This document shows, one piece after another, positions 6,001-28,604 of a stretch of 64,000 nt of DNA. This DNA is from Tubulanus polymorphus (Eukaryota > Animalia > Nemertea): positions 3,100,001 through 3,164,000 of the forward strand of contig NC_134028.1 of the NCBI RefSeq assembly GCF_964204645.1. Direction: 5' to 3'. The notes beneath the pieces were generated by a model, which saw nothing but the letters and a program-made list of their open reading frames with translations, was not told where the DNA came from and made no database searches. Each line of letters opens with the position of its first letter. Position 1 is the stretch's first letter. A program made the translations under genes and the position numbers.

Positions 6001-9000
6001 GGTCGTTAACAAAGGTCGATTGTACGTCTGCCCTAAACTCACTCACCAGAATCACTGAAGCGAGATTATTATCAGTGATACAAACACAGCGACTCTGGCA
6101 AGTGAGGATGGTCTATTCTATTGTGGTCGATATAACGAGAAACTTACTTGGGAGAACGTTGTCGAAATAAATAGCGAGAAGGAAATAAATAACGAAATCG
6201 ATGATCAACATGATGAATGGTCCGTAAAGTGGAAACGTTCCGAGCGACATCTTGTCTAAAGTGGCGCCACCGTGCAACATATCGAGCAACGCAATCTAAG
6301 AAAACAAAGAACATTTTGTCAAGTTGATAAGAGTTGGGTATGCATTTTCCTAATGGGATAAATGTCGCGTTGGACAATCTCAATCTCATATAACGGCATA
6401 AATGTCATCTAAAATAAAAGCCAATTGTCTATGAATTCATGAATAGCAATTCCCAGCGAGAGACAATAAAAGCAACATATGAAAGTCATTTATGAAAATA
6501 GAGAAGTACAGTAATGCACTTCTGCTCGGGCAGGAAAATCAATACCGTCATATAACATTATCGACTCGTTGACCAAAAATTGTTTCACGCGGATAACTGG
6601 ATACCATTTCAGCGACGATTCATGCAGAAACCTAATACAGCAAGAATTCATCAAGGCTTTCACATAATTCAATACCGTTGGTTTATACTGGTAGTCTCCA
6701 GTGGAAGCAGATGAAATTTTTTAGTAACACCGGTTATATCCACCAGAGGTTTTACGAGGAAGGCCATCTCTTTGGCTTTTACATCCACCCCTATGAAAAT
6801 TAGCCACCTTGATATCTGCTGTTTCTCAACATATTAAGCCAATATTCTATTGATGCTTACAACAACAATTGCTTCATAAAAAATTTTAAGTTAACATAAA
6901 AATAGCAGATTGCACCAAGCTAGATCAAATGATTTGCTACTTCAACGGTCACAATCTAATAGACTAATACAACTCCTCTAAAATCCCAGCGTATGAAGAA
7001 CAAACACTGCATTTATCTGAGAAACTTACACGATCAGTAGCAAACGCAATAGCTGTCGGTGACAATAAACATAGTAACCATTGTTCAGCAGGTGAATACG
7101 ATGACTCTGGAATTCCGTCTGCCCCGACAGTTCGACTCAGCGCCACCTATAAGGGAAATTTTTCATCGAACTCAGCCACACTCAGATGTGGAGAATAGAT
7201 AAGATCGAAACCCACTACTTACAAATACAAATTGACACAACATTCTGGACTCTGTCTAGAGACCACTGTCTGACTTATAGAGAGTCCAAAACGTTGTCAT
7301 TTCGCTTATAATTCATGATTAACTAACTTTGATCCCATCAAATACTTTCTATAAATACATCATAATGAATATCTTTCAAACAACAAATTCTGAAAATTTC
7401 ACGCTTACCGGCAAATACCCGACTAATGATAACGCCAACACGATGAAACTGCTGACCGAGGCAGCGACGCGCGTTTTATTCGAGAACGCCGATATCAGAA
7501 ATCCCATCGCGATCAAAGTCAGTCCATAGAGGTAGAGAAACAATGCTATCAACAACCAGTTCGAATACATGAAAACTTTGAATAGGTAACCGATTAACGC
7601 GATTCCAGCGGTGACTAAAAGAATCACGATCGCGTACACTATCAACCAAGACAACCTAAAACGAAACCAGATTCTTAAATTCTTTCAGCGGTGAAAAATG
7701 TTTACCCTTTAGTGCCGCGGATAATTTGAAAATTCCGCCCCAGTGCATCGTATAATGGGCATACTGCAACAGTCCGTCGACAATGCAGTGCATTAGCATT
7801 AGCTAATTGCATCACTGATTTATACATCGCATCACGTTATTGACGCACTGAAAGGCTTAAAAAATGCTCCTTTTTTAATCTCACAAACAATGAAATTACG
7901 AAACTTGAAATGATTATAATAAGGGAAAAAATCGGAAGGGCCAGTGCGTTTTTAACAAAATCTGCAGCAATTTTCATCAAAACGTCAAAATTATCTCATC
8001 GGCAGGGATACAAAAATAGTGGTATTTACCACTAGAGAATACCTACCAATACGGTGAGTTGAGTAGACCCATTATTTGCATTGTCTCTTTGATCTTGCGC
8101 TCTTTATCGTAGACCAGGTAAACTACGAGATACGTGAGGAACGGTGTATACGACATCGGTATATAGATACTATACAATATCTGTAACACTTGTATGCTCG
8201 GATAATGAGCGTCTTTCGGCATCATTTTCACTTGATATCGTTGTTTCGGAATAGTTTCATTTGATTTCCACTGAAATATTTCGAGAAAAAAAAAAATACG
8301 CCATATAAAATGGAAATCACACCACGCGTGTAAAGGGCACACTCTAATCATTTCTAAAAATAACTTTACTGGCGCAATACTGATTTCAATTGAATACAGG
8401 CACGCCGCAATAGCTGCATAGAAATGGATTAATTTCATTGGGGTCCAATAAAGGCTTTAAAAATTAATATCAATGATCTGAATAATGGGAGCTTTTAATG
8501 TTGTACGGCATTCCACTGAGAAATCTTAGCTGTTTAGGCATTCCTTTGAGACATTTTTGTTTGTCGACCAATGAATTTGTGTAGTTGCCACTGACACTGA
8601 CACTCCATACGTGTTTATGTATAACTGCGTGAAAAGATTTAAATCTATCATGGAATCACTGTAAAAAGTGGGTTTGGGCAAAAACTCGAGTTGGTTCACC
8701 GACACTTAATCCATTCCTATTCTTAACGAGCTTCTTCAACTAACTAATATCAAAAAGGAAACACAGGAACAACAGCTTCATTTAAAAAATTCAAGTGATC
8801 TATTTCAGTATTGCTGGAGCTGGATACTGATGATATAGTACCTACCTGTATAATAGCTGTATCTATGGCAACTTGTAGCACGGCAAAACCGCTGTACAAA
8901 AAATCATTACTGGGACAGTTACCTTTAGACAAACCAGATGGACCATCATGACAGTCAGCTGAAAATATGATAAAACATAATCAAAACCAAATCATTGAAG

Positions 9001-12000
9001 CTGATATCATTTGAAATCATTATGCTGATATAGCTTGCCTATCTATCTATTAATCAAAGCCTCCAAGATTGTGACACTGGACTCAGTTAATGGACTTTGT
9101 TGGTTTTTTTAAATTATTCAACTCTAAATTTGAATACCCAACAATTATGGAATTGGTGTGCTACCAACAGACTGGCCACCTTATTCGACTTGCTTTTCCC
9201 TGACTTTTCCCTGCCACGCACATTGTTCTCCCTGACTTGATTTACATAGATGGAAACTATTTAACAATGTGCGATCTAGCAATCTCAACAAATCTCCCTG
9301 ATTCTTAGCCTTTTTTCTTTTACAAAATTCCCTCGACTATTCCTCGAGTTTTTTAAAGAAAAGAAAATTTCCTGACTTTCCCTGATTACTGGGTGGCGAC
9401 CCTGAGCCAACAGTGTGTAATTTCAAATGCATCAATTCTCCAATCCACCAGCGTGGTAACAGTAACAAAATGTATAAACAGTTCATACATGTACCTGCAG
9501 ATGCAAATGGTAATATTTGACTGGTCAGACTGAACTGTTCAGCTGGTAGACGTATCGAGTAGCTGATCGTATCGCCATCTATTGTGAAGTTTAATCCGGC
9601 GTACCAGGATGTATAGTTCATCATGTAATCGACTTCAGCTTCGGTATTATTGGTGACGAACACGTATCCCGGCCTGGCCGTTACGTTCAATGTCGCGACA
9701 ACTGAATCCAGGATTCTTCGAATATCCGCCGTATTCTCGGACACAACGAGAATCGGACGATTCCGTAAACTCGTCGGAATAAACTGCGATTTCGTAATAT
9801 TCGTTGTCGCCATGTCGGTGATAGCGGGCAGTTTGGCGGGCATAACTATTCGTCGAACCATTGTCAGAATGAGAATCAGTGTGATTGGATAAAGAACCTC
9901 CTGAAATACACACAAATACATCTATATAGAGACACTGTCCACAATTTGACGGGTGGATAGATCAATTTGTAATGACGGGTGGATAGCTCAATTTGTATAT
10001 CATCCCTTTGACCGGTGGATAGCTCAATTTGTATATCATCCCTTTGACGGGTGGATAGCTCAATTTGAATATCATCCCTTTGACGGGTGGATAGCTCAAT
10101 TTGTATATCATCCCTTTGACGGGTGAATAGCTCAATTTGTATATCATCCCTTTGACGGGTGGATAGCTCAATTTGTATATCATCCCTTTGACGGGTGGAT
10201 AGCTCAATTTGTATATCATCCCTTTGACGGGTGGATAGCTCAATTTGTATATCATCCCTTTGACGGGTGGATAGCTCAATTTGTATATCATCCCTTTGAC
10301 CGGTGGATAGCTCAATTTGTATATCATCCCTTTGACGGGTGGATAGCTCAATTTGAATATCATCCCTTTGACGGGTGGATAGCTCAATTTGTATATCATC
10401 CCTTTGACGGGTGATTAGCTCAATTTGTATATCATCCCTTTGACGGGTGGATAGCTCAATTTGTATATCATCCCTTTGACGGGTGGATAGCTCAATTTGT
10501 ATATCATCCCTTTGACCGGTGGATAGCTCAATTTGTATATCATCCCTTTGACCGGTGGATAGCTCAATTTGTATATCATCCCTTTGACGGGTGGATAGCT
10601 CAATTTGTATATCATCCCTTTGACGGGTGAATAGCTCAATTTGTATATCATCCCTTTGACCGGTGAATAGCTCAATTTGTATATCATCCCTTTGACCGGT
10701 GGATAGCTCAATTTGTATATCATCCCTTTGACCGGTGGATAGCTCAATTTGTATATCATCCCTTTGACGGGTGAATAGCTCAATTTGTATATCATCCCTT
10801 TGACTGGTGGATAGCTCAATTTGTATATCATCCCTTTGACCGGTGGATAGCTCAATTTGTATATCATGCCTTTGACGGGTGGATAGCTCAATTTGTATAT
10901 CGTCCCTTTGACCGGTGGATAGCTCAATTTGTATATCATCCCTTTGACGGGTAGATAGCTCAATTTGTATATCATCCCTTTGACCGGTGGATAGCTCAAT
11001 TTGTATATCATCCCTTTGACGGGTGGATAGCTCAATTTGTATATCGTCCCTTTGACCGGTGGATAGCTCAATTTGTATATCATCCCTTTGACGGGTAGAT
11101 AGCTCAATTTGTATATCATCCCTTTGACCGGTGGATAGCTCAATTTGTATATCATCCCTTTGACGGGTGAATAGCTCAATTTGTATATCATCCCTTTGAC
11201 CGGTGAATAGCTCAATTTGTATATCATCCCTTTGACCGGTGGATAGCTCAATTTGTATATCATGCCTTTGACGGGTGGATAGCTCAATTTGTATATCGTC
11301 CCTTTGACCGGTGGATAGCTCAATTTGTATATCATCCCTTTGACGGGTAGATAGCTCAATTTGTATATCATCCCTTTGACCGGTGGATAGCTCAATTTCT
11401 ATATCATCCCTTTGACGGGTGGATAGCTCAATTTGTATATCGTCCCTTTGACGGGTGGATAGCTCAATTTGTATATCGTCCCTTTGACGGGTGGATAGCT
11501 CAATTTGTATATCATCCCTTTGACCGGTGGATAGCTCAATTTGTATATCGTCCCTTTGACGGGTGGATAGCTCAATTTGTATATCGTCCCTTTGACGGGT
11601 GGATAGCTCAATTTGTATATCGTCCCTTTGACCGGTGGATAGCTCAATTTGTATATCATCCCTCTGGACAGCGTAACTATGACTGTTGTATTGCTCGATT
11701 TTAATGGCCTTATGGCCTTTAACTGGTTCAATTTGCTTTCGTGGAGATGGAAAAAAATTGTTTGCCCGTTTCTAATTCGGCACTCGCATTAATGGAGGAA
11801 GTTTAATTAAGTTTAAATCACTGGAGCACAGTTCGTATACAGTAACTAGACCGTCCGTCCATCTGGCTTGTCATATATTCAATTAACTGATCAATACACT
11901 GGTGTATCACTCTATCCTGGTATGATGATACACAGTAAAGCCCCCGATGATGACGATCGACACTGGGTATCCATCCGTCTGCTCAGTTATAATCACAGTA

Positions 12001-12433
12001 AATGTGTTTATTATACCGCTACTGATGAAGTCATGCAATGGCTAATCTATCATCGTGGTCAACTATATATCAGTACTAACTGTCATGTTGATATATACGC
12101 GCGTTCGTTCGCGTGCCTTGTAGAGCATTTATCAAACAGCTTCTCTCTTCGCTACCCATTGAAATTCAAGTCAGTTCCATTTCGGAATTATGACTGCCAT
12201 AACAGTTGCACAAGGTCTCATGAGGCAGTGCACACGACATGATTGTGTTAATCCACAAATGGATTGAGGTGAAAGTTACCGTATAAAACAAACTTTGTCA
12301 GATGAATATGAATAAATTAACAGATTTTCTGCAGTAGAACCCCGTAATAAAAATGACTAAAATTATCAAATCATTTAATTGAAAAGGATGAAATATAACT
12401 CAACACAGACAGATAAAGCTTATCAGCGCATGT

Positions 12434-12527
<94 letters not shown>

Positions 12528-14547
12528 GCAATTCCTTCTATGTAGAGGTTTCGAAAGAGCGACAAGTATCATCAGATTCAAGTATGATATGTAGGTACTG
12601 TAGGTCTAAATGATAGAAACGAATGCACTGAAACAACTATAAACTGAGACGACACTAAACTGTGACTACCACTCTCGACATTTGTTGCCTAGCAACGCAT
12701 CAATACCGTACATTGATATGATGCGGCCACATATGATACACGTTGGGCCAATTGCGATGAGAGCAAACTGATAAAACTGGGAGACGGATGGGAAGAAAAA
12801 AAATGCAATTTACTAAAAATATTCATAAAATCAAGCCAAAGTCGCTTGAATTTAAGATGAAAAACATCATCTAAAGGTTACTTGTGAATACAATTTTAAG
12901 CATAATACTGATTTTTTCATAAAATCTTAATTTCTGAAAGTGAAAGTAGCAATTTTTATATCGGAGAAACCCATTCCAGAATTAGATCATTGAATCATTT
13001 ATATTTCAAAGGACTGTCTGATTTTTTGTTCCATTTGATCAACCAATAGCATTTTATTTCGCAATTCTTTTGGCATGGTGCCCCAATTTTCAGTATAAAA
13101 TACTCCCGATCAAACCAATTCTTTGAAATCCAGATCCAGCAAGTAAGTAAGGTAGCTACATTTTGAACAACGCAAGTTCGTAATTGTACGTACAGTCCGA
13201 TTAACTATGCCTCTAATTTTGGATATCATTTGTTTTTTTCTGAAATTGCTCTGGTGGTTTTTTAAACCACTGGCACAGCTTTTATCGCAATTACCGGTAA
13301 GTCTTTTAGAGACATTTTTGAAATGGCTGATTCAATATTTGGGGAATGTTGCACTGAGGTGGATTTCCCCTCTAATTGTCAACCGATTATTGACTATTCT
13401 TCATGGTCAATAATCACAGAATGATTGGTTTTTAAAACGTCCCCAGCCAGCAAGTAAGTAAGGTAGGCTGGCTTACACAGAATTTTGAGCTTTTAAGCAA
13501 GTTATTAACTGTACGTACACAATCGAAGCAATGATGCCTATACACAATCGAAGCAATGATGACTGTACACAATTGAAGCAATGATGCCTTAGATGATGCC
13601 AATGATGCCTGATAGAGAAAACAAAAATAGAGAAAAAGTTCAGTTAGGCCTATACAATGATAGGTCCTTGTAGCCTACCTACTTAGTGCTGGATGGGATA
13701 AGAAGCTACGCTTCTATGTGGACTAATGTGTGAGGGCGTTCTCGTCGCAGTCCATGTCAGTAGCCTTTAGGAAATTTTATCCTCTTAGTAATAATAGAAG
13801 AGAGTATATTTCTTAATGGCGAAGCTAACACTCACACACCATGAGCTGCATTAAGCCTGAAAAGGCTAATTGGTGCACTTATGCCATGGATCAAGCAAGC
13901 CGAGATGAGACAACTGATTTAGAGATAAATCACCAATTCACCACACAATGTCAACTAATCGCAATCTCGCACATATTCACTTGAAAAATTACTATAGAAA
14001 TTCTTTTCCTGAAATAATATTAGCCGACTGGATAAACTTGCCACAGATTCAGAATGAATCTAGGAAGTGATTATTTAGCCTTATAAAAGATATTTTGCTG
14101 GATCCATATATTTTGTAAAAATAAAATCATTATATTTGGTTTAGGGTTAGGGTTTCGATAGGGTTAGTGTCAAGAGGTTGAGAAGAGGGTCCAGAGGGTT
14201 CCGTTTCATAACTAGGGATAGGGTTAGGCTATAAAACATTCGATTCAGGTGGGTTTCAGCGAGCTCGGTGGTTTAGTGGGATGAAACTGCGCTAGTAATT
14301 ACTGGCCCGGGTTTGAGTCTCGCTCTTTCTGCTCTTATGCTATTTTCTCAAACTCTGTTCTCCACACTTCCGGTAAAATAATCACTTCCATAAATCAAAA
14401 TAATTTGTAATACTAGTTACTAAGTTAGGGTTTTTTAACTGTCACCAGGTCACCTACCTGGAAGGTTCTGGCCTTTTCACGGTTTCTCTGTCTAATATTC
14501 CTCAACAACAGCGCTTTGAGCTGCTGCCAATAGTTATATCTCGCCAT
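1..14547 (-). CDS. ABCA5: ABC transporter subfamily A (ABCA5-like), 5' part; gene continues beyond the left edge
   Basis: Phase-consistent GT-AG exons: 14458-14547, 9495-9900, 8846-8958, 8047-8270, 7409-7655, 7030-7146, 6148-6295, 3481-3744, 3222-3355, 2986-3138, 2778-2897, 2555-2693, 2382-2472, 2159-2298, 1984-2073, 1454-1861, 1229-1350, 893-1141, 677-808, 440-592, <1-215. Motifs: N-terminus [17 protein letters not shown]; Walker [10 protein letters not shown]; signature LSGGQKRKL; Walker B/D-loop [12 protein letters not shown]; H-loop TTHFMDEAD; [34 protein letters not shown] is typical of the ABCA5 group. The ABCA family call is firm; exact orthology is less certain. Confidence 0.93.
289..367 (+). 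mobile_element. tRNA-derived SINE-like head in an ABCA intron
   Basis: A-box-like TAGCTCAGTGG and B-box GGTTCGAGTCC, but no cloverleaf acceptor stem. Confidence 0.45.
9168..9404. mobile_element. Non-autonomous TIR element (CAGGGTGGCCAC termini, TTCCCTGAC subterminal repeats), degenerate copy
   Basis: Ends CAGACTGGCCAC...GTGGCGACCCTG with repeated TTTCCCTGAC. Related copies at 36493-36638 and 56470-56692. No clean target-site duplication (TSD). Confidence 0.55.
9944..11663. repeat. 36-bp minisatellite, ~47 copies, in ABCA intron 1
   Basis: Unit GACGGGTGGATAGCTCAATTTGTATATCATCCCTTT with point variants and no spacers. Confidence 0.98.
12437..12524. repeat. (AT)n microsatellite
   Basis: About 44 perfect AT units. 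Confidence 0.98.
13516..13590. repeat. Short tandem repeat, ~23-25 bp x3
   Basis: TACACAATCGAAGCAATGATGCC repeated three times with variants. Confidence 0.8.
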
Positions 14548-15241
14548 TATTCACTGCTTCTCCCGTTCTACATCGCGAAATTCTGTATATAACCAGCTTC
14601 AAACCCGGGACAGACTCACATCCTCATATTTCGAGCTGTCAAAAATTATTCACGATTATGATCGACCGTAGCGCCATCTAAACCAACTTGCCAGAGAAAC
14701 TGGACTAATTTTTTCCTAGGGTGGATTCGGAAAAATAACGAAATGGCGAACCTCATTTGAGCTCTGTACATTCATCATGATTTACTGCTTAATACATGAG
14801 ATGGTTCAACAGTATTTCCAAACATATTTACCCGGTCCCGGCAGTGGTTGCCTCCTCAAGATCTACATCGCTCTACGAACCTCCAGCGTGACCAACATGC
14901 TTCAAAGTACACATTATCAACATAGGGGAAAATAATGAATGGGCAACCCACTATACGATCCACTGATCCACGATTGATTAGAATGAAGTCTAAATTAATC
15001 TATTCACACTTTTATTTACAAATTTAACAACTGATTTAAATATATCCACATAAAGCGCATAAACAAAACAGCACATTCAAGGAGGCCTACCAACATCTAA
15101 GAAAATTCCATAATTTTTCCTTTTGAAAAGTCAGAAATAGGCATAATGTAGGCTATGCCACAAAAATGAATTGCTTATGTTTTCATTGAAATAACGTTGA
15201 AAGACAATCTCCTGATAGAGAGATCCATAATTAGCCAGTTC

Positions 15242-16989
15242 TTAATTCGACTTTTCTTCATTTGGTTCTGACTGCAACTTTTCTTCAAGATTATTGAACT
15301 GTCGCAAAGATTCATCTTCAGCCGGATCTTCCACCTTTAATAAAAAGATGCCAGAAGAATGAATTAGAAGAAAATAGATTTAAAATAATTCTTCATTCAT
15401 CATTAGGCATACCTGTTCAACTCCTAGAACTTCTGGTATGTAAAATTGCAGCATATTTTGTACCCCATTTTTCAGCGTTACAGTCGAACTAGGACACGAT
15501 GTACAAGAGCCTTGAAGTTTTAATTTCACTATGCCATCTTCGAAACCCTGAAGATGATTTTCAGGAAAAATTGTATATGGAAAAACCATGTGCATCTTGA
15601 AGACTAGAAATCTAGTCAACTGGACCCAGTTCCACAGTTGTGAGTTAGAGTTAACTCTGAGTTAAAGTTAGTTCATTTTCAATGTTTTAGCTTAGAGTCA
15701 AATATTAACTCACAACTGTGGAACTGGACCCTGGGCTTAAAAACCATAAACCAGTCCGACGTTAAGGTAGTACCTGGTATATGATGTCACCGCCATCCTC
15801 TTGCACGGTGGGTCTTATTCGCGAATCTAATAATTCTTTAATCATAGCCACTGTCTCATCATCATCTTCTTCAATCACTAGATTTAATCAGACGAAATAA
15901 ACGTGTTAAACATGTATTCTACAAGTATTTTTTGTAATAAATTTCAATTGTTAAATGAATCAATTGAACACGAACCAGTGTCAGACGGTGGTTGCTCATC
16001 TGTGAGTACAGGTAATCCACTCGAATAAAAGTCCATTACCGTCGCGAAAATGTGAGGTTTCAAGACGCCCCAATCTGATTCTTCCTCCTATAAAGGGTCA
16101 AGATTGGCAAAATAAGTCTTACATAATATTGGTGTATAGATATATCAAAGTCATCATACAACATACCTTAGTTATCGTTAGAAAATCTGTACCAAAGAAA
16201 ACACCTTTAACACCTTCAACTCGGAAAAGTTGCCTGAAATATCAAATTATAGTTCATCAATTTTGAATATCTTCAAATTGCATTTTGAGATTGGTTCTAA
16301 AAGAATCTATATAAACACTTTGCTAATGGTGAACCGTAGGCAGCGCTAACAGAAGGGAAGTCCATCGTTCCTGATTCCAGAACGTCTTTGCCAGGCATAA
16401 ACTTCATACTGTTCGGGTTTGGCGTGTCTTGCATTTGAATAAACATGGAACGCACTACAATAAATACAAATGCATTGCATTATTAGACTTTTCGGACGAG
16501 AAAAAAATCTTAAACGTGCCAATTTCCAATATTGAATAAAAATCAGATTTGAAAAATCCTAATTCTCAGAATTATGAAGTTCTCCTCACCTGATTGTAAC
16601 ATCCATGGCTGGGACGTGAGCGGAGTATCTAACTTTGCAGAACAATTCAAAACTGGTGTTGATCGTACATTTCCCAAAGTATGAAAGCTTTTTAAATGAA
16701 AAATAATGGATATTTCTTCAGTCGATTTCGTCCAATCAAATGATATTTTATGTAATACGATGTCGATGATCGATTGATTGAATTTGATTGATTTGTTTCA
16801 AGGGGTTATTAAATGTTTTCAGTCACTTCTTAGAATCAAAGTGATTGTAAATAGATTTTGATGAATAAATCAAAACACTAGCCTATCGTTTTTCAGACTT
16901 AAAACTGTAATTACTCACTATTTTAGAGACAAATTGTGAAACATTGGCCTTAAATTTACTCCGAAAATCTTTTTCATGGGCGCAGCCAT
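15242..16989 (-). CDS. NFU1: NFU1 iron-sulfur cluster scaffold homolog, mitochondrial (~271 aa)
   Basis: Exons 16919-16989, 16590-16687, 16319-16454, 16167-16233, 15976-16087, 15774-15877, 15413-15547, 15242-15334. Basic presequence-like start [10 protein letters not shown]; [16 protein letters not shown]; [20 protein letters not shown]; [11 protein letters not shown] (CxxC). AATAAA at 15011-15016 on the minus strand. Confidence 0.97.
15623..15730. mobile_element. MITE, probably PIF/Harbinger type, in an NFU1 intron
   Basis: TIRs GACCCAGTTCCACAGTTGTGAGTTA / TAACTCACAACTGTGGAACTGGACC, flanked by CTG on both sides (15620-22, 15731-33). Confidence 0.75.
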
Positions 16990-17080
16990 CGTGAAATACT
17001 CGCTTACCAAGGCTGGTGTTAGACTGGTTGCCGGTGTCTACTGGTTGATCCCATCCTCCATTTTCGATGCGTCAAACATG

Positions 17081-17322
17081 TCAGTATCGGCTGGATTCGA
17101 ACCCGGGATACCCCTGTACACCCTCTATTCAGCATCAGGACCCTCTGAATCAGTATCAGTAATTACTGGGTTCGAACCCGGGACACCCCTGTTCATCCTT
17201 TATCATCAGGACCACTCTGAATCTCAGTAATTGATGGGTTTGAACCCGGGACATCCCTGTACTTCCTCTATTCAGCATCAGGACCACTCTGAATCAGTAT
17301 CAGTAATTACTGGGTTCGAACC
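17081..17322. repeat. Tandem ~70-80 bp repeat with four Pol III B-box-like motifs just upstream of NFU1
   Basis: GGATTCGAACCC, GGTTCGAACCC, GGTTTGAACCC and GGTTCGAACCT, each within CCTGT...CATCAGGACC.CTCTGAATC units. Confidence 0.75.
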
Positions 17323-18034
17323 TTAGAGACGATCAGGAGGTCATTGACTACATTTACCGAAAGCATGAAGAAAATAAAAACAATGATTTTTACAAGAGAA
17401 ACACAAATCTCACGTAATTAATCATGTAATGTTAACACCAAAAGAAGGATACTGGGTGCCACTTTTTAAGGCAAAGTTAACTATTCAGGACTCTGCTTCT
17501 GTATATAAAAATCTAACCGATCATCAGTGGAAATATCAAATTAGCGGGTGGTGAAATATATATGCCGTCACAAAATATTGCCGAAGGGCACTTAAATCTT
17601 AGACCGTACAATGTATTGGGCAATACGGTCTGGATCCGCCCCTGATGGCTATAGTGACAATCAAAAAGATTGCTAATTTTGTAATTACTCTTCGCTCAAC
17701 ACTCGCTTCTAACCGGTCAACAAGTGTTAGTGTGTCCGGGTGGAAGTGGTAAGCTGTATTGCCAATATTCAATTATCATGTTTTCCGGACATCCTCGTCT
17801 CCGCACAATATTGGTGGGAATATTGGGTTGAAGAAAGAGGTGGATTGCAAGATAACAAAAAACCACTGACTGGTGAACTAACAAAGTTCCCAGAGTAGCT
17901 AAACAGATAAAGAATTTCAATCATATATATTCTCATACAGTGTACAACAATTATACAAAATGCCAGGTTTGTGCTCGAGGAATTATAACGTAAGCTCCTC
18001 AAACACGTGGACTGTATTTCAAAAACAGTCCAAC

Positions 18035-18139
18035 CATGGACGTATAAACTATAAACTAGAGTTTATACATCCATGGTCCAACCATAGACTCTAAAACAGA
18101 AACGTCTATGGCCCACAACCATGGACTCTCGAGTCCATG
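18035..18139. mobile_element. Cluster of three ultra-short palindromic elements (CATRGA...TCYATG)
   Basis: Elements at 18035-18075, 18083-18110 and 18120-18139. The first is flanked by a perfect 7-bp duplication GTCCAAC. Confidence 0.6.
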
Positions 18140-20549
18140 GCTCCCCGCACTAAAACCAGAGATAAACCTGGCCAAATACTCTGGAAAGCGTAAGATTTAA
18201 TGAATCAATCTGATTTACATTTTTACTCTTTAAAATTTGACCCGGCCGGCCACCTATCTACCAAGGTATTACTTTAAAATCATGATAAGCTAACCATAAC
18301 AGACCCGGCAGATAGAAATTAGGCTAATTGATTACAAATTTCATTGATGTATGAAATGACCTGCCTGATCAGGAAAAACAAGGTATCATTTTTAGCCTTA
18401 TAATAATGACTTAGATTATTCAATAATAAAATTACTAGCTTTTAATATCACATATCATGCAAGGTATTTCAAATTTTTTATTCAAATTTCCACTGCAACT
18501 GATTCATACAATTTGAATCAATAGGAAAATAACAAATTTACACAAAGAATTGTAAACTTTGATCCATAAAACACCGACAATTGGGACTAGTCCGAATGTC
18601 TAAGACTATTAATTTGACATTTCATGATGTCACCGGGCATGAGTGACACTTGATTATTTCATGAAATATGAAGCATTCTATCATATCAACTATACAGCAA
18701 ATGACAATGTAAGAAAGATTTCTGTTTATACAAAAAACTGCAAAACATATCTCTAGTATATAAACATTAAAGCTGGACATAAAACCACAAATTCATTCAA
18801 ATAATCAATCTCTAATTTCATTTCATTAACATTATTTTTACAAGAAAACTGAAATTTTGCAAACTTTGCTTTGTATTCGAGGAATTATCAGTTCTTCGTT
18901 AACCAATGGGTGAACTGTATTTGAAAAAAAAAAACAGTTCAACATAAAAGCATTAAAATCAGAGATAAAACCTAAAGATTAACTCTGGAAAGCTTGAGAT
19001 TAGCTAATCAATCTTTATTTTCATTTTCATTAAAATTATTTTCCAAGATAACTAGAGTTTTACAAGATAACTAGAGTTTTTCTAACTTTGCCTGAGATTT
19101 TCAAACATTATCAGTTCGCTCATTTAATACAACGTTATTTCAGGGAAAACATGACAATAATTTTACTATCGATAACTAATCACGTTTATAGCTGTTTAAC
19201 ATTCTTTCTAAAAAAGAGTAAAATGTATCTCCCAGATATTATCCCTAAAACAATTAACATTTACAGCAGTGATAGGGTGTGATATATAGATAAATGGACG
19301 CATGATCTTTCATCAGTTATTTGAAGCATTCTATCGAAACAGATATTCTTTAGTGTGTTTGGTTTAGTTAAGGTTTATGGTTATTTGTTTTGTTTATTAC
19401 TGAGCCGATAGAATGCTTAAAACAACAACAGAAAGGATCTCAAGAGGTTGGGAAACACGGAGAAGGTTGTTCTATGAAAGAAGAACCTTTAATAATTGGA
19501 TCAAGTTGATTAGAAAAAATGCCTGATGATGAAGGCCCTATATAGAGTATTTACTAATTGTTTGTTGGTTTCGTTTATTTGTATTACTTATAATTTAATT
19601 TGTTTTTTTTTTGTTATGCATTTTTTTATTAATTGTTTTTTTTAATGTATTTTTCTTAATTATGTTCTATGTATTTTGTACTATTTATTACAATCTACAT
19701 CATCAGGAATTTTTTATCGGTGAAATTATGGGCTCACTTTAAAAAAGTGCTACAAATTCACTGCTGCACCTAAATAATAGTTTATTATAAAACACCCCGA
19801 TTAGTATGAAAGCCACTCAACCTTATGATGTGGATGACAATGAAAGAAGTTAAAACAGCTATAAACAAAATTAAAACGATCAAAATCAAGTTCAAGAGAT
19901 CAAACTAATAACGTTCCAACATCCTTTATTGTGTTTAAAAGTTGCAACTGTTTAACTGACTACGCTCTCCCTTTTGAACATTTAGGCTATGCAAATCATT
20001 TTCACTCAATAAAATATAAAATAAATCACTATTTCTAATATTAATAATCGAATAAAGGCTAAGAGAGTAATCATTCTATGAACTATATGATTATTACAAA
20101 TTAAGCAAAGCTATGTTTAACTAAAGTATGAAGCTTATCTGAACTATCCTGTCGATATTATATCTCAATTTACGTGTATTTCAACCGACCTTCGAGTCAA
20201 ACTGAGACGCTGAACGCGATCGATACCATGAATTAATGGAGCGTAAATTTTATGAGACTCCAAGAAGGAACTTTAAGGACTTAAATGACTCATCTGTTTA
20301 ACAAATCTAAACAGTTTGCCTAATCAGTATAAAGAATCAGGAGGATGCCATTTTATTGAAATATTCAAACATGAATAGTTCCTTCTCAGGCCCAGGGCCC
20401 AAATTACCTAATTTTAATAATCAACATTTCGACAACTAATCAACTATTCTTTAGTTTATTCCGCCCCTTCAAATAGACCAGTGAATTTTGTAAAGACTGA
20501 TCAGACTGATTTGTAAAATAAATCAATACTTCACATATTCTACTCTCGT

Positions 20550-20842
20550 TGCTGCTCCTGAATAAGTGTTTATAAGATACGCATTGTCTCTGCTGCTCCT
20601 GAATAAGTGTTTTTATAAGACACGCATTGTCTCTGCTGCTCCTGAATAAGTGTTTATAAGATACGCAATGTCTCTGCTGCTCCTGAATAAGTGTTTATAA
20701 GACACGCATTGTCTCTGCTGCTCCTGAATAAGTGTTTATAAGATACACATTGTCTCTGCTGCTCCTGAATAAGTGTTTATAAGATACGCATTGTCTCTGC
20801 TGCTCCTGAATAATTGTAATGAGAGACGCAATGTCTCTGCTC
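20550..20842. repeat. 41-bp tandem repeat, ~7 copies
   Basis: Unit GTCTCTGCTGCTCCTGAATAAGTGTTTATAAGATACGCATT. Confidence 0.95.
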
Positions 20843-21496
20843 CACCAATTGTAGAAGAAATCCATCATTGAGCGATAAACCGATGCTGGCTGAATTTTTC
20901 ATCTAGACTTCAGCAGTTAAATTCAAGTTGGATTCATTCTGCTGACTGTTTTAATCAGTAGATTCTAGATGGTTAGTTGATCTTAGTATGGGCTTTTTCT
21001 CATAGATGTGATTCAGCTGAAAAGAGTTAAAGACAATATCCTGTATTCACACAATATTTCATATAACATTAATCATAATAATTTCCATGTGAATCAACTT
21101 ACCTTTCAAGATTGCCGAGTATCGGCTAGGATTGTCTTAGTTGGTTCATGAGTTAAATTCGTTGGACTCTTCCATGGTAGTTGATGAATTCAATTCAAGT
21201 TGTACCTTCTATGATTGCTGTGTTCATTATCGGATCTTGGTTGGTTCTTGAGTTTCATTCGAATCGGCCCCTTCTGTGCGCTGTTCTCTAATCGGCAGAT
21301 TTCTGATGATTTGTTGACCTCAAGCTCTCGTTTGAGTTGGTGTCCCTTACAAACACACCTGCCGGGAGCGAAACGGCGGTTTTTTCAAAATCGGAAATCG
21401 AAGTACAGATATAGTTGCCTGATCGGCGGTCGTTTTTTTTAAGTCCAAGAACATAATTGGTAATTCGGTTCTGGTTCATTCAAACAATCTTTTATT

Positions 21497-22413
21497 CTGC
21501 CTAATTCTGATTTTGGAAATAACTATATTACAAGGTTGAAGATAATTTTACAATATTTGGTCTTTTTTTATGTAACTAGTCCGAAAGTTTACAACGTTTA
21601 ATAATTTTGTCTAACTTCAATTTTTTTGGTCGTTTTCACCGTTTAAATAGTCGAAGCACATATTAAGTGACTGATTGGGGTTAACTTTTTTTCTGCCTAA
21701 TTTAATACATGGAGATTTTGGAAATAACTATATTTTACAATATTTGGTCTTGTTTTTATGTAACTAGTCCGAAAGTTTACAAGGTTGAATAATTTTATCT
21801 ATTTTTTTCTGCCTAATTTAATACATCGAGATTTGGAAATAACTATATTTTATATTATTTGGTCTCGTTTTTATGTAACTAGTCCGAAAGTTTACAAGGT
21901 TGAATAATTTTATCTATTTTTTTTCTGCCTAATTTAATACATCGAGATTTGGAAATAACTATATTTTACAATATTTGGTCTTTTTTCATGTAACTAGTCC
22001 GAAAGTTTATAAGGTTGAATAATTTTATCTATTTTTTTCTGCCTAATTTAATACATCTCGATTTTGGAAATAACTATATTTTACAATATTTGGTCTTTTT
22101 TTTATGTAACTAGTCCGAAAGTTTACAAGGTTGAATAATTTTATCTATTTTTTTTCTGCCTAATTTAATACATCGAGATTTTGGAAATAACTATATTTTA
22201 CAATATTTGGTCTTTTTTTCATATAACTAGTCCGAAAGTTTACAAGGTTGAATAATTTTATCTATTTTTCTCTGCCTAATTTAATACATCGAGATTTTGG
22301 AAATAACTATATTTTACAATATTTGGTCTTTTTTTCATGTAACTAGTCCGAAAGTTTACAAGGTGGGAGAATTTTGTCTAACTTTAATTTTTTTGTCATT
22401 TTCACCGTTTAAA
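21497..22413. repeat. ~116-bp AT-rich tandem repeat, ~7 copies
   Basis: CTGCCTAAT recurs at 21497, 21693, 21809, 21925, 22039, 22156 and 22272; each unit contains TAACTAGTCCGAAAGTTTA. Confidence 0.95.
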
Positions 22414-25400
22414 TTTGTTTAATTTTTTAAAGTTTATTGTAGTTTTTCTCGAGTTTGTCTGAAATCGGAGTACATAATTGGGAAATTTGATTCCGGTTCA
22501 TTCAAACTATCTTCCAATCAGTCTGAAATGGCAAGCTGAAGAAAAGAGCAGAACCTTTTGAGCAGAAAATCCTTTCGAATATCACTGATCATAATAATCA
22601 TGTCAATTCATATATAAGATCAGCAATGTGGATCGATACGTAGATTTTAATAATAGTCTTAAATGATATTTATGAAATTCAACGCATATAGTAATTCATC
22701 TATATTCTAAATATCTAAGCAATGGTTGATTATTATAGTTTAACAACAATTCAACTAAAGCATCTATAGTCATCTCTAGGAATACCAGAGTTACACCAAA
22801 GTAATGCATAATCAATCTTATCAAATCGTTTTTGAACTGTTTTCTCTTCTATCTTCTTGAAATTCTTGATGTGTCTTTTATTGAAACCCAGGCCCATCAT
22901 ACAGTGCAAACGTGCTAGTAATATTGGCCTGTATATATTTCGATTGTCAGCTAAACCATGTTCGTATTATTAAATTTACTTCATCGTGAGTTAATAAACT
23001 TAAAGAGATGTTTTCTACCCACAGATGGCGACATCTGTACCCAGTGAATGGTATTCTAATCCATTTCATTAATTCTAAATATTGCTCCTAATATATACAA
23101 TGATTTTGTAATTATGATAATATAACTAACTGAAGAGTGAGTGCGCTGCCAGCATTGAGCACACTGATCCTATAAGTAAAATGGTTCTACAGATTTAAGA
23201 AACCTCGAATCATTCCCACAACTTGACAAATCCAGAATTCTGCAAAGCCTTAAAGATTCAATAAATCCCACGCACAAGAGACAGAGTTAAAACATACCCA
23301 GTATTCTTTATATATCAACCAATATTGAATTATACTTATTAACCCCTATGGTTTAGATTTGAGCACTTTTACCTTATATGAAGATGCTGAATTAGTTACC
23401 TAATCAATAAGTTGATTGATAATGTCCTAGCTATAATTGAAATTGTCTCGGACAATATTTTATATGGGGCTTGAAATTTCTACACGAGAAGAATTTCAGA
23501 TCCGGTACGAATTTGAATTAATCACTACTATTTGAAATGCTAATTTTGCATCAGAGCTTTTGATACCTAGCTTAACTAACCTAGAAACCCCCAAAACCTA
23601 ACTGATTCAACAGATCCCACACACACATGTGGCCCAGTTAGACGCAGATGACATTGCGCGATACAGTCGTCTGATCCACTGTGCAATTTTGAATAAGTTT
23701 CACTTATATTCATTTCATTGAATTCATTTTGATTAAATTCTAGGTATCTAAGCGAACCATTAATTAGTAATCATACTAGCTATATTTTAATTGTCAGTTG
23801 AACAATATTTATATGGAGCCTGAAAATCTACATGAGTAGAATTTCAGATGTGGTGAATTCGTCACTATTTGAATTCATCAGAAATTAAAGATAAAAAAGC
23901 ACATTTTTAGTGGTAAATTAGAAATTGCCTTAGCCGAATGGCTATATAATCTTTATTTACCTTATATAGTACACGGTGTATAAGGACCAAAAGACCTTGT
24001 TATGACCGGACCTCCCTGGTGCGGTGCGAGTCATGATGCTAGAAAATAGTTTGAAGGAGAGGGGTTAGTAAAAGAGAGCTATTAGCAAGAGGAATAAGAC
24101 CTAAGTTTAGGACATCCTGTCAGAATAAGGCTTTCAATCTGACATACACAGTGAAATTGAAATATTCCCCCTTCCAAATCCAGGAATGTATTTGTGCACA
24201 GATTCGATCGGAAGTAAATCTGCGTTAAATGATTTTGGCAATATGTATCAAAACTAATACAGCTGTGTGAAGACACCATAGGTTCACTTAGATACAGATA
24301 AATAAATGTGCTCAGATACACATGTATCAGCTACATTTTAAATGTCCATGGAATTAGAAATAATTTCACATAACAATTGAATTAACCTTAATCGATCTAA
24401 GTAATACGTTAATGAGTAATTCATCTTAGATTCTAATTTTCAGTTAAACTATATCTTATATGCGTCACTTGACACACAGTATGGCTTTTAGATATTAATT
24501 GAATCAGTTAGGTTTGAGTAAATTTTGCAAATAATGAAAAGCATGGCTAGTCATCGTAAGCGCGGCAGTTGGCGATACAGAACTGATCAGTCAATGAGAC
24601 TGATTCACTTATAGATGTGCTCAAATATATTATATATTTCAGCTATATTTCAATAAATATTTATGATATAAAAAGTTTTTGATCTAACATCAAATATTGA
24701 ATTCATCTTAATTGTGAATATCTAAGCCATTTTTCCTGGCTGTATGCTAATTGTCAGTCAAACAACAATTATCATGCGTCGCCCAAAACGAGACGCAGTG
24801 TTTCAGGAATGAATTAAATCAATTAAAGCTTTGGTTTATTCTGGATTTATCTAAATGTTGAGACCAAATCACTGTTTCATAAAGACCTGTAGTCCATAGT
24901 TTTCCCCATATAACACCAGACCTCGATAGAGCCCTAGACACTATCTTATGAAATTCATAACTGTTATGTGTGAGGCAGCACACAGTATATATTGTAAAGT
25001 ATGGCCTCAATCTTAATAAATTTATCAATATATTATTTGTAAAGAAAAATCTATCAACCAACGATAAAGTTTAATTGATATATCTTTAAGTAAAAATTGT
25101 CCTATCTAGATCTTGACTGTCAGTTAAACAATAGTCATATGAGGCCTGAAATATCTACGGTACATTCGAATAATTTCAAATGTCACATAAGATATTGAAT
25201 TTACCTTAATTGTACGTACTTACAAAACTTTTAATCATAACAGACCAATCTACATTTTAATTATCAGACCAAAGAATATTTAAGGGACCTCACTCAATCA
25301 TTTCGTCTAATATTGTAAATATTCAAGCAATCATTGCCTAGCTATATTTCAATTTACTACCGGCCACAGAGCCTCAATAAAGTAGTGCGGAGATGGTGAG

Positions 25401-25821
25401 CTTGACCAGCGCCTATGCATTCTACCCCAGATATGAAAAATCAACTTAGCTTTATGTATGCATGTATTCCTGTTGCCATGCAGGATGAGCCATGCAAGAC
25501 TGCCAGGTTCGGCTGCGACAGGTCTTTCGGTGTTTGGTGGTACTTCAAGGTGGAGTCTTTTGTGGGCACTTCTGGTGGGCAGATTTTAGATGGGCCTTTC
25601 CGGATTAACCTGAAATGAGTAAAAGAACGATATTCTGTAGTTACACAATCCTTTCCGTATCACGCATCGTAATTTACATGTGTATCAACTTAACTTTCAA
25701 TATTGCTGAGTTCAGTGTTCTTTTTTGGCATCGTCTTCTTTGTAGTCACCTTCAGCATCTTCTTCTTCATCTTGGGAGTCCTGAAATGAAAAAAAAGAGA
25801 AGAGCGATGAAAACCTGGTAC

Positions 25822-26596
25822 GGAACAAAACTAATGTTCGAAAGCTTTTCAGCTCTCCCTCGCCGGTCACATGCCGAGAACACCAGACAATGAGCCAGCT
25901 AGGAATATACTGCCCTCTACACGCCCTCACACAGAACGCGAAAACCAGAATGACAACGCCTCACATTCCCCATCTAACTGCAGGATGTACTGGGCGACGT
26001 CAGTAACTGACAAACCTGTAAAATTGCACGAAACACAAATAGTGCAGTACAACCAGCTTGACCGGGTTGAGATTCAGGATCTCAACTAGCACTCAAAAGC
26101 GTGACAAGAGACTTCATCCACTGACCGAGGTTATCACAAGGACACAATGAAACTAGCACTCACAAGCCGACGAGAGACTTCATCCACTGACCGAGGTTAT
26201 CACAAGGACACAATGAAAACTAGCACTCAAACTAGAAATCAAAGAGCGTGACAGTAGAATCATCCCTCAGCCGACTCAGAATACCAGAAACAAAGAGCGT
26301 GACAGTAGAATCATCCCTCATCCGGGCGGTCACAAGGACACAATGAATGCTAGTAGCGTGACAATCCAGTATAACCGCTCCATTTGTATCCCGTGCAATC
26401 TCACAGATATGCCCGTCATTGGCATCACTCAGCACACTTTGTAGATAGGTGGGGGAAGTGAGGCCTCGTCATCCTGGTTTTCGTGTTCCGTATGAGGGCG
26501 TGTAGAGGGAGAATTTCCTGACCGACTCTTTGTCTGACATCCTCGACACATGACCGGCGAAGGAGGGCTGACGCTTTCGGACATTAGTTTTGTTCC
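25822..26596 (-). ncRNA. Candidate long hairpin RNA: diverged inverted repeat (arms 25822-26048 and 26374-26596)
   Basis: The inverted repeat is directly visible at ~77% identity by hand alignment. Mismatches are mostly transitions and favour G:U pairs on the minus strand. Minus-strand splice acceptors flank it. Transcription itself is inferred. Confidence 0.5.
26085..26362. repeat. Direct repeats (~66 bp and ~46 bp units) in the loop of the inverted repeat
   Basis: AACTAGCACTCA...GAGACTTCATCCACTGACCGAGGTTATCACAAGGACACAATGA twice plus a partial copy; AAAGAGCGTGACAGTAGAATCATCCCTCA twice. Confidence 0.9.
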
Positions 26597-28604
26597 AGCA
26601 AATGTTGAAATTCGACAGAGAAATCGGCCCTGAAAAATAAAACGGGTTAAAACCTGAAAAATAGAACGGATTAATGAACACTGAACAGTACAGGACAGTA
26701 CGGAGACGAACAGTAACACATAAAACATAAAGACGTCGTTCCTCAGGAAGCAGGAACAGGAGCAGGAACGGGAGCGCAGCGAAAATCGCCAGGAGAATCC
26801 ACGGTAGCATGTTCACAGTGTGAGTAAGCTGAGGTGAATGGTCTATGCTTGTGTACACCGTGGTCAGCCGGTGACGTGTTCAATAGCGCGTATGAATGAT
26901 ATCAACAACTCTGAAAAACCGCAATTGTGTCTCTATTGTTGAATGGATTTACATTATGAAAGGTTCCACCGCCGGGTTGAATACGCGCCAGTAGTCAGCT
27001 GAACAATATAGTAGAGGAACTTTTATAAGGCCATGAAATAAATCACTTGATTCCCAACAGCTACTTCCGAATTCATTAGCCACCGCCTGTTTTTTTTTCT
27101 TAAATTCTAGAATAATTTATAAATTATACCGACCGATAGCACTTCAGTTAAAGATTCACACCATCACAGGTCTTCATATCATACAAACCGCGTAAACATT
27201 TACTAATGAAATTAGTTGATTAGTCACAACTACGAAAGGACAGTTCATGCACCCCGAGATAACTAACTCACACCATGCACGAGGAAAGCGGTCTATTTGA
27301 GTCATTGGGGGAAAACCCACTAATACCATGTATTCACGATTAATCATCATTCATACTGTTATCACAGAATCCCGTCAATAGACAGATTTCATTAAAAAAA
27401 ACTCCTTGATTTAATTGAGGGCTTTTTAATTACTTGGAGCACCGACCCTCTGAAATTCTGCCAAAAACTTCATGCTTACCACTCATAATTTGAAAAAAAA
27501 AACAAATGGTTTTCTTTAATTTTGATACTGGATTAAACGGTACATCAACATGTAAATTTAGGAAAGTCCGTTTCTTGTTCCAATTTACTCTTATATCCCA
27601 TTTTTGATTTTGCTCAGAGTATGGCGGTATCAAATCATGCGTACAGGGTCAGTCTGTCCATGAGGATACTAGTTGCGATAAGTCAGACAAGTCATGATTA
27701 GGCATTAAAGCAATTCACTAAGTGAAAAACTGCCACCTGCCACTTTTTTCTGCATTAAGCGTTAAATTTTGCTTAAGCCTACAAAAATCATGTCATCATT
27801 GATGCCGGTCCTTGGATAGAAGAAAAATAAACTCATAAGAAAAACCATTCAGTAAATGATAATAATAATATTGAGTTTATTAATCACAATGCAATAAAAG
27901 TGGTAATTTTCAATTTGCCTCGTGCAAATTCATACGCTCGCTGTTGTAATGTGGTAACAATTCTCTGGTGAAATTAATCCCTTAAGTTCCTAATCTTTGC
28001 ACGAGTCTACTGTATTTCACAAACTCTTACTCAGAATTTGACAACACCAACTCGGGGTAGAATTTTACCAGTCTCGACTTTACCGCAGTAAGAAACTGAG
28101 TCTACTGTATATCATAAACTCATACTCAGTATTTGACACCAACATGTGGTTTGTGAAAATATCCGATCGTGAAACTAAACGATACGAAACACATGGTTGT
28201 GGTTTTTTTTCGGAATTTGACTACCCAGGCAACACCCTTTCGTTGAATGTCCACTTTCATGGAGCAACCCGTGGCCGGCGTTAATAGATAGCCGATACAG
28301 CTAATGGAACTGATTAGATTAGAGAAATTGCCCCCTCGCCAAATGTATGTTTGATTTCAGGTAGCTATTTCGGCGATTTAGCTCTATTTAGACATAACAC
28401 ATCACATGCTAAGAATCGTGAACCCACCACCGGTAGCACGGTGTATAATCGACAGACTTCTAATTTATCAAATGGAAATATTTGTTCACATCGAACGCCG
28501 GAAGTTTGGTTAGATTGCATTTTTCACTGAACGTGCAAATAAAACATGTCTCGTTTATATACTCAGGTTTAGTTTTTCCCGTCGTTTAACTAGAAGTGTA
28601 CGGA

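What the first reader, a model, noticed from the sequence alone, without database searches (positions are those of the whole stretch)
25822..26596. Diverged inverted repeat with strand-biased G:U wobble: candidate long hairpin-RNA (endo-siRNA-type) gene
Seen: two ~225-nt arms (25822-26048 and 26374-26596) are reverse complements around a 325-nt loop of direct repeats. My hand alignment gives ~49 substitutions and 2 small indel regions. About 41 are transitions and ~8 are transversions. About 29 transitions form G:U pairs on a minus-strand RNA, against ~12 on a plus-strand RNA, so the minus-strand duplex stays ~90% paired despite ~77% identity. The minus strand also has polypyrimidine-CAG acceptors at ~26654, ~26630, ~25781 and ~25610. 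I see no TSD, transposase or clear codon periodicity. Established: Drosophila hpRNAs are Pol II transcripts with long G:U-rich stems that are diced into siRNAs and regulate genes in trans. Inference: selection maintains an RNA duplex here, implying an hpRNA-like locus in what appears to be a non-insect invertebrate. The target is not visible in this window.
Basis: partly seen in the sequence, partly recalled or inferred. Interest (0 to 1): 0.8.

Follow-up and report, generated by a model that had tools for sequence, protein, structure and literature searches.

The report
Multicopy RNA hairpin inside a repeat
The long inverted repeat is real, but it is the core of a repeated DNA block with about 160-210 copies in this animal, likely a mobile element; it is likely copied into an RNA that folds into a 230-base-pair stem and likely gets A-to-I edited, so it is not a single-copy silencing gene of the fruit-fly type.

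Summary
The inverted repeat is confirmed: arms 25822-26048 and 26374-26596, 29 minus-strand G:U against 12 plus-strand (p=0.012), 91% paired on the minus strand. Genomic reads cover it about 160-210 times deeper than single-copy DNA, inside a multi-copy block of about 10 kb with no recognisable protein, terminal repeats or target-site duplication. A run that behaves as RNA covers the hairpin and stops near 26860-26900. At 25975 all 5 covering contigs read minus-strand A as G, in a UAG context, against 1 of 1153 DNA reads: likely ADAR editing, so the minus-strand duplex likely forms in cells (different individuals, so not proven). Transversions are depleted and CpG decay is 12:1 towards G:U. 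That fits selection on the duplex, but mutation bias near a transcription start is not excluded. The four proposed splice acceptors are read through. Earlier AI notes call the host a ribbon worm, a group reported to lack DICER2 and endo-siRNAs but to keep siAGO. No other copy, small RNA or target could be obtained.

The parts
26360..26596 (-). 5' arm of the hairpin on the minus-strand RNA
   Evidence: alignment and fold
26063..26359 (-). Loop of degenerate direct repeats (66-nt and 51-nt spacing); folds better than shuffles on minus only (z -3.3 against +1.7)
25822..26062 (-). 3' arm of the hairpin
25975..25975 (-). Likely A-to-I editing site (minus-strand A in 5'-UAG-3', paired with U at 26447)
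   Evidence: X5 55.1 of 55.1 depth in 5 contigs, X6 7.93 of 7.93; DNA X8 1 of 1153 reads, X1 0 of 4951, X2 0 of 313
26597..26900 (-). Transcribed 5' leader and likely transcription start near 26860-26899; initiator-like TCATTC at 26899-26894 (motif recalled); its short ORFs have no credible homologue
   Evidence: X5 contig 26703-26853, X5 depth 0 at 26917-27318
26900..27955 (-). Multi-copy but untranscribed upstream region, likely promoter; right end of the block near 27953
   Evidence: DNA depth 124-548, X5 0-24 with X5 at or below 0.58; one single-copy-depth X1 contig leaves the window sequence at 27953
25610..25693 (-). 84-nt intron-like segment, 75% like 21017-21102; donor reads TT here and GT in the paralogue; spliced frame open for 84 codons; not seen spliced
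   Evidence: crossed unspliced by X5/X6 contigs
22460..25420 (.). Degenerate repeats with about 165/340-nt period, downstream of the hairpin on the minus strand; about 38-91 copies
17470..27955 (.). Whole multi-copy block (about 21-210 copies by part) between an NFU1-like gene and an astacin gene; left end not resolved; may be more than one element
   Evidence: depth; Pfam hits for the flanking genes

Best explanation
The inverted repeat is the most amplified part (about 160-210 copies) of a roughly 10-kb repeated block that is likely a non-autonomous mobile element, and it is likely transcribed on the minus strand into an RNA that likely folds into a 230-bp G:U-rich stem, which ADAR likely edits and which would supply double-stranded RNA that restrains its own family. 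Shown: the repeat, the strand bias, the copy number, coverage by RNA-like contigs with a boundary near 26900, and one RNA-only A-to-G difference. Inferred: an old inverted duplication arose in the element's 5' region; along the lineage of spreading copies, changes that left G:U pairs were kept and changes that left mismatches were mostly lost. Predicted, untested: the stem is cut at low efficiency by the single miRNA-type Dicer or fed to the piRNA route, ADAR competes with that as for C. elegans rncs-1, and the products act on other copies of the family, the only complementary sequence known here.
For: Copy number: X8 depth 956-1238 over 25711-26715 against a mean of 6.0 in 12 low-depth bins; X1 summed contig depth 4071-12351 against 41. 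Depth stays high outside both arms (630 at 25510-25710, 953 at 26716-26916). RNA: X5 alone shows 3 GT..AG joints in the astacin gene, has depth 49-117 over the hairpin, 0 at 26917-27318 (DNA 548 and 249) and 0.27 at 16923-17469 (DNA 2702), so it is not carried-over DNA. Editing: 25975, the only RNA-only row among the 40 shown, in the 5'U/3'G context that metazoan ADARs favour (PMC9989829); 4 of 109 arm adenosines have that context. Selection-like pattern: transitions:transversions 43:14 in the arms against 39:47 in 7 direct-repeat pairs of the block (p=0.0005) and 177:127 among X8 alleles (p=0.017); CpG-type transitions 12 G:U-making to 1 A-C-making (p=0.003). Of 6 majority DNA alleles and the RNA-only allele shown in the arms, 26422 restores a pair, 26394 and 26401 turn A:U into G:U, and the insertion at 26509 (885 of 1037 reads) closes a bulge.
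Against: No small-RNA data, so silencing is untested. Non-CpG transitions alone are 19:11 (p=0.20). Two majority alleles (25859, 26456) break pairs. The excess of T>C places in X5 is weak (p 0.012 to 0.23 by comparison). RNA and DNA runs are from different samples; one heterozygous copy with a private allele would give at most 1 read with probability 0.20, and X5 shows only one allele at several sites that are mixed in DNA (26653, 25663), so a subset of copies is expressed. X5's kind is not on record and contigs cannot show strand. No terminal repeats, TSD or transposase, so 'mobile element' rests on copy number and one contig with another flank; tandem or segmental duplication is not excluded. 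No endo-siRNA signature was found in the one nemertean small-RNA set published (PMC11114477).
Confidence: 0.42

Rival explanations
1. Neutral by-product: an old inverted duplication near the start of a transcribed repeat. The G:U bias comes from transcription-linked mutation bias (C>T and A>G on the non-template strand), and ADAR edits the duplex as it edits any repeat-derived dsRNA.
For: The arms lie 0.3-1.1 kb from the inferred start, where vertebrates show C>T over G>A and A>G over T>C on the non-template strand (PMC2927911, passages). The unpaired leader and loop are also T-rich on minus (T 0.38 and 0.36, A 0.17). Repeats are the main ADAR targets in animals (PMC9989829). Non-CpG bias not significant.
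Against: A 2.6-fold overall and 12-fold CpG bias is larger than the vertebrate bias as I recall it (size not seen in the passages). X8 allele places are strand-symmetric over the block (A>G 181, T>C 198, C>T 179, G>A 175; unpolarised). No skew further downstream (A 0.33, T 0.35). The hairpin is the best-represented part of the block.
Confidence: 0.25
2. Cis-acting RNA structure of a non-autonomous retroelement (LARD-like; recalled), needed for packaging or reverse transcription, with some G:U pairs being ADAR edits copied back into DNA.
For: RNA-strand structure under apparent selection; a second minus-biased hairpin cluster at 17960-18150 (19 against 6 G:U); the right end reads TGTTAC on minus from 27959; 5' U is enriched before wobble G (12 of 31 against 16 of 86, p=0.03).
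Against: No direct terminal repeat in the window; about 1 kb of untranscribed upstream DNA is multi-copy and fades gradually; 5' G is not depleted before wobble G (8 of 31 against 17 of 86, p=0.61), unlike ADAR's preference; 12 of 31 wobbles fit CpG decay.
Confidence: 0.15
3. Host hpRNA gene family, amplified by duplication, diced into siRNAs that repress a separate gene in trans.
For: Long imperfect stem near the 5' end of a transcript with its own upstream region; Drosophila hpRNAs can be tandem (9-20 copies), dispersed and TE-derived (PMC10317233); nemerteans keep siAGO (PMC11114477).
Against: DICER2 reported absent in Trochozoa and no siRNA signature in a nemertean or in molluscs (PMC11114477, PMC12479628); no splicing seen at 4 of 4 proposed acceptors; about ten times more copies than the largest fly cluster read; no target in the window.
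Confidence: 0.13
4. The arms are decayed terminal inverted repeats of a MITE or foldback DNA transposon.
For: High copy number; the outer 24 bp are 96% complementary.
Against: Depth does not fall at the arm ends and no cluster of loose ends or TSD lies there among the rows shown; DNA-level TIR decay gives no strand bias.
Confidence: 0.05

Closest known systems
Drosophila hpRNAs (hp-CG4068, hp-pncr009, Nmy/Tmy, hp-ODox2, hp70; PMC10317233, passages and section 7 read)
   Same: Long imperfect intramolecular stem near a transcript's 5' end; can be multicopy and can contain TE sequence.
   Different: Defined by Dicer-2-dependent 21-22-nt siRNAs and a target; neither shown here, and DICER2 is reported lost in the likely host group. 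About 160-210 copies against at most 20 in the clusters read. No splicing seen.
C. elegans rncs-1 (PMC3409262, passages read)
   Same: Non-coding stem-loop of about 300 bp that is A-to-I edited; editing competes with dicing.
   Different: rncs-1 is described as one locus with small RNAs shown; this is a high-copy repeat core with 23% arm divergence and no small-RNA data.
ADAR-edited repeat-derived dsRNA of metazoans (PMC9989829, passages read)
   Same: Repeat-derived duplex; edited A has 5' U and 3' G.
   Different: The usual substrate is two nearby young copies in opposite orientation; here the duplex is built into each copy and its arms are older than the spread of the family.
Maize Mu killer (PMC3440606, start of abstract only)
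   Same: Transposon-derived inverted duplication transcribed into a long hairpin that silences its family.
   Different: Mu killer is one rearranged copy driven by a flanking gene, with transposase sequence in the arms; here the hairpin is the amplified core, likely with its own promoter, and has no recognisable coding origin.
LARD non-autonomous LTR retrotransposons (recalled; search listing only)
   Same: Large non-coding repeat with conserved RNA structure.
   Different: No LTR pair found in the window.

Membership tests
Drosophila-type hpRNA | Long intramolecular stem on one strand | tested here: met
   about 230 bp, 89-91% paired on minus
Drosophila-type hpRNA | Transcribed locus | tested here: met
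   X5 and X6 contigs cover it; X5 is inferred to be RNA from GT..AG joints; strand inferred only from the A>G site
Drosophila-type hpRNA | Spliced, capped, polyadenylated Pol II transcript | tested here: inconclusive
   4 of 4 proposed acceptors crossed unspliced by contigs; 109 and 1173 joint rows not shown; ends not testable on contigs
Drosophila-type hpRNA | Dicer-2-dependent 21-22-nt siRNAs from the arms | not testable with these tools
   no small-RNA run offered; literature reports no DICER2 in Trochozoa (PMC11114477); host taxon from AI notes only
Drosophila-type hpRNA | Complementary target gene in trans | tested here: inconclusive
   window only: best 21-mer match has 3 mismatches; no genome held, genome index unanswered
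TIR DNA transposon / MITE with the arms as termini | Copy number falls at the arm ends, with a TSD | tested here: not met
   depth 630-953 just outside the arms
TIR DNA transposon (whole block) | Terminal inverted repeats and TSD at block ends | tested here: inconclusive
   none above chance, but the left end is unresolved
LTR retrotransposon / LARD | Direct long terminal repeats | tested here: not met
   self-BLAST shows no long direct repeat between the block ends
Autonomous transposon or endogenous virus | Transposase, RT or viral protein | tested here: not met
   0 of 18 block ORFs reach a Pfam cut-off; no credible hit
Fossil ADAR hyper-editing in a retroelement | Wobble G depleted after 5' G | tested here: not met
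   8 of 31 against 17 of 86, p=0.61; 5' U enriched, p=0.03
ADAR substrate | A-to-G in RNA, absent from DNA of the same individual | tested here: inconclusive
   RNA-only A>G at 25975 in UAG, but DNA runs are other samples
Known Rfam RNA family | Covariance-model match | tested here: not met
   0 matches at gathering score in the window and 0 at E<=1 in 16800-28400

The most novel reading that the evidence does not exclude
A mobile element of a ribbon worm carries its own hairpin-RNA gene, kept double-stranded by selection and spread to about 200 copies, whose stem is diced by DICER1 and loaded on the siAGO that nemerteans kept after losing DICER2. It would be the first natural long-hairpin substrate for endogenous RNAi in Trochozoa and would explain why siAGO survives there.
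Probability: 0.17. Interest if true: 0.75.

Novelty: new variant of a known kind. Interest (0 to 1): 0.45.

Why it matters
Molluscs, annelids and nemerteans are reported to lack a dedicated siRNA pathway, and what they do with their own long dsRNA is open; one paper suggests RNA editing melts it (PMC12479628). A high-copy, expressed 230-bp stem with a candidate editing site is a ready test: existing or new small-RNA and RNA-seq reads can be mapped to it to see whether it is diced, turned into piRNAs or only edited. About 200 copies also give enough variants for a within-genome test of selection on an RNA duplex. If the bias is mutational and no small RNAs exist, it is an ordinary edited repeat.

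Tried and rejected
Other copies could not be obtained: no genome is held, the genome index gave no answer, arm patterns found 0 matches in metagenome contigs and viral contigs, and earlier findings held no look-alike. So no covariation test and no genome-wide target search were run. The run search listed no RNA holder on record; X10 (RNA guess) laid only 5 short pieces, none on the hairpin: neither is used as evidence. Coding readings rejected: the 113-aa leader ORF had 0 of 46 candidates at E<=0.01 and only Atlas hits of 0.84 or less; the 55-aa exon-like ORF 0 of 4; the 4 hits are repeat-protein artefacts; one search's hit is 13 residues. An LRR reading of the degenerate repeats was dropped because, by my reading of the aligned units, the conserved motif has stops in all frames. 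A hammerhead or known RNA family: none; tRNA: none. A 9-bp TSD candidate (17549-17557 and 27966-27974) is at chance level and has no TIR. A 15-of-16 match of the 5' arm to 18250-18265 has E=0.69. A taxon check with the window's GPCR ORF returned nothing at E<=1e-20, so the host group rests on AI notes. The bacterial promoter scan is not relevant. The G:U richness of fly hpRNAs is recalled; 'wobble' has 0 occurrences in PMC10317233. For the single-copy baseline I used 12 low-depth bins and left out 3 bins of 12000-16922 that hold other repeats.

Full report
Observation. A computed alignment of 25822-26048 with 26374-26596 gives 173 matches, 29 transitions that pair as G:U on a minus-strand RNA, 12 that do so on a plus-strand RNA, 9 transversions and 4 gap columns, unchanged in 5 of 5 scoring schemes (p=0.0115). 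The stem runs on to 26062/26360 (31:12, 14 transversions, p=0.0054). The minus strand folds at -423 kcal/mol against -317, with uninterrupted helices of 36, 29 and 25 bp. The best of 79 like-sized inverted comparisons elsewhere scored 92.5 against 255.5.

It is a repeat. Raw genomic reads (X8) cover the five bins of 25711-26715 at 956-1238 against a mean of 6.0 in 12 low-depth bins (range 1.4-8.5; three repeat-bearing bins left out), about 160-210 copies. X1 contigs agree (4071-12351 against 41). Depth stays high just outside the arms (630 and 953) and fades gradually on both sides. The multi-copy block runs from about 17470 to about 27955, at about 21-210 copies by part, between an NFU1-like gene and an astacin gene. 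One X1 contig of single-copy depth follows the block to 27953 and then continues for 1623 letters unlike the stretch: one sign of another insertion site. The left end is unresolved and the block may hold two related units, since 25603-25711 and 21010-21120 are 75% alike around an intron-like segment. I found no terminal inverted or direct repeats and no TSD above chance, no Pfam family at its cut-off in 18 block ORFs, no credible homologue and no Rfam match. 'Non-autonomous mobile element' is therefore an inference; the class is unknown.

It is likely transcribed. Run X5 has no recorded kind, but it alone shows three GT..AG joints in the astacin gene and has depth 0.27 on a repeat where DNA depth is 2702, so I treat it, and X6 of the same sample, as RNA. 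X5 covers the hairpin at 49-117 and falls to 0 at 26917-27318, where DNA depth is 548 and 249. The RNA/DNA ratio is 0.06-0.08 over the hairpin, 0.02-0.04 in 22393-25127 and 0.002 in 27316-27862. This fits a start near 26860-26899 for a minus-strand RNA; the initiator-like TCATTC there is a recalled motif. Contigs cannot show strand or ends. X5 or X6 contigs cross all four proposed acceptors unspliced (26573-26698, 26539-26739, 25666-25890, 25368-25655), though 109 and 1173 joint rows were not shown.

The duplex likely forms in cells. At 25975, X5 reads C for T in 5 of 5 contigs (55.1 of 55.1) and X6 in its one contig, against 1 of 1153 X8 reads, 0 of 4951 in X1 and 0 of 313 in X2. On the minus strand this is A to G in 5'-UAG-3', inside the 3' arm, paired with U. 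Metazoan ADARs favour 5' U and 3' G (PMC9989829, passages); 4 of 109 arm adenosines have this context. It is the only RNA-only row among the 40 shown (304 not shown). Against: the samples differ, a single heterozygous copy would give at most 1 read with probability 0.20, and X5 shows one allele at sites mixed in DNA (26653, 25663), though it has the 12% insertion at 26512 at a 10% share. The overall T>C excess in X5 is weak (24 against 15, 13, 11; p=0.012 against X8, 0.12 against X1, 0.08 against X2; 0.07 over the larger stretch). I put editing at about 75%.

Why the bias. Transitions outnumber transversions 43:14 in the arms, against 39:47 in 7 direct-repeat pairs of the block (p=0.0005) and 177:127 among X8 allele places (p=0.017). 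CpG-type transitions are 12 G:U-making to 1 A-C-making (p=0.003); the rest are 19:11 (p=0.20). CpG decay should hit both strands, so keeping mainly the G:U outcome fits selection on the minus-strand duplex. Majority alleles shown in the arms are mixed: 26422 restores a pair, the 26509 insertion closes a bulge, 26394 and 26401 turn A:U into G:U, 25859 and 26456 break pairs. Two earlier AI findings proposed edits fossilised in DNA for similar hairpins; here 5' G is not depleted before wobble G (8 of 31 against 17 of 86), though 5' U is enriched (p=0.03), so that is not the main source. The remaining rival is mutation bias near a transcription start, which runs in the same direction in vertebrates (PMC2927911, passages); leader and loop are T-rich on minus, the downstream repeats are not. 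One copy cannot separate the two.

How it most likely works. An inverted duplication in the 5' part of the element's transcript, older than the family's spread (arms 23% apart; most reads within 10% of this copy), is kept as a duplex, edited by ADAR, and likely serves as a dsRNA source acting on the family's own copies (0.42). The last step is untested. Rivals: neutral by-product (0.25), cis structure of a retroelement (0.15), host hpRNA family with a trans target (0.13), MITE termini (0.05).

Comparison. Fly hpRNAs are defined by Dicer-2-dependent 21-22-nt siRNAs and can be tandem, dispersed or TE-derived (PMC10317233, passages and section 7). Earlier AI notes call this genome a ribbon worm; my own check returned nothing. 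PMC11114477 (passages and section 7) reports no DICER2 in Trochozoa, siAGO kept in some Nemertea and no endo-siRNA signature in one nemertean; PMC12479628 (passages) reports the same lack in molluscs and suggests editing as the fate of their dsRNA. So this may work like an hpRNA or like rncs-1 (PMC3409262, passages), but membership of the hpRNA class is not shown. Ten literature searches listed no description of such a repeat in a nemertean; I saw only titles and abstract starts for most, the library lacks most subscription papers and Repbase, and I read no supplements, where repeat libraries or small-RNA tables could bear on novelty.

Verdict. A real, likely expressed and likely edited long hairpin, built into a high-copy repeat: a new variant of a known kind. 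Interest 0.45; the bolder reading, a natural DICER1/siAGO substrate in Trochozoa, has about 0.17 probability and is directly testable.

Noticed in passing
window 17960-18150: Five adjoining short hairpins that fold better on the minus strand (-120.6, 19 G:U) than on plus (-99.0, 6 G:U) for 17940-18260; a degenerate partial copy lies at 18860-19040.
   Followed up: partly
window 18230-18290: Short piece with about 2300 DNA depth and X5 depth 353; 1814 reads continue leftwards into a different sequence, so it belongs to another abundant, expressed repeat or marks a truncation.
   Followed up: no
window 21350-21430 and 21433-22461: A small piece with depth about 3500, next to a 116-bp tandem array that many copies lack (joint 21432 to 22462 in 192 reads).
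   Followed up: no
window 18564-21298: Left part of the block has about 21-50 copies but an RNA/DNA ratio of 0.07-0.15, as high as the hairpin: likely a second transcription unit, with an intact GT-AG intron-like segment at 21017-21102 and a 41-bp array at 20550-20841.
   Followed up: partly
window 17078-17322: Tandem repeat of about 70 nt with a tRNA B-box-like motif (recalled), about 450 copies, almost no X5 coverage; no tRNA called.
   Followed up: no
window 15620-15730: Palindromic high-copy insert (MITE-like) within the NFU1-like gene.
   Followed up: no
window 28003-28180: Separate very abundant repeat with a 92-95-nt period directly right of the block.
   Followed up: no
window 9973-11663: 47 copies of a 36-bp unit in or beside an ABCA-like gene, open in one frame for 631 codons.
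   Followed up: no
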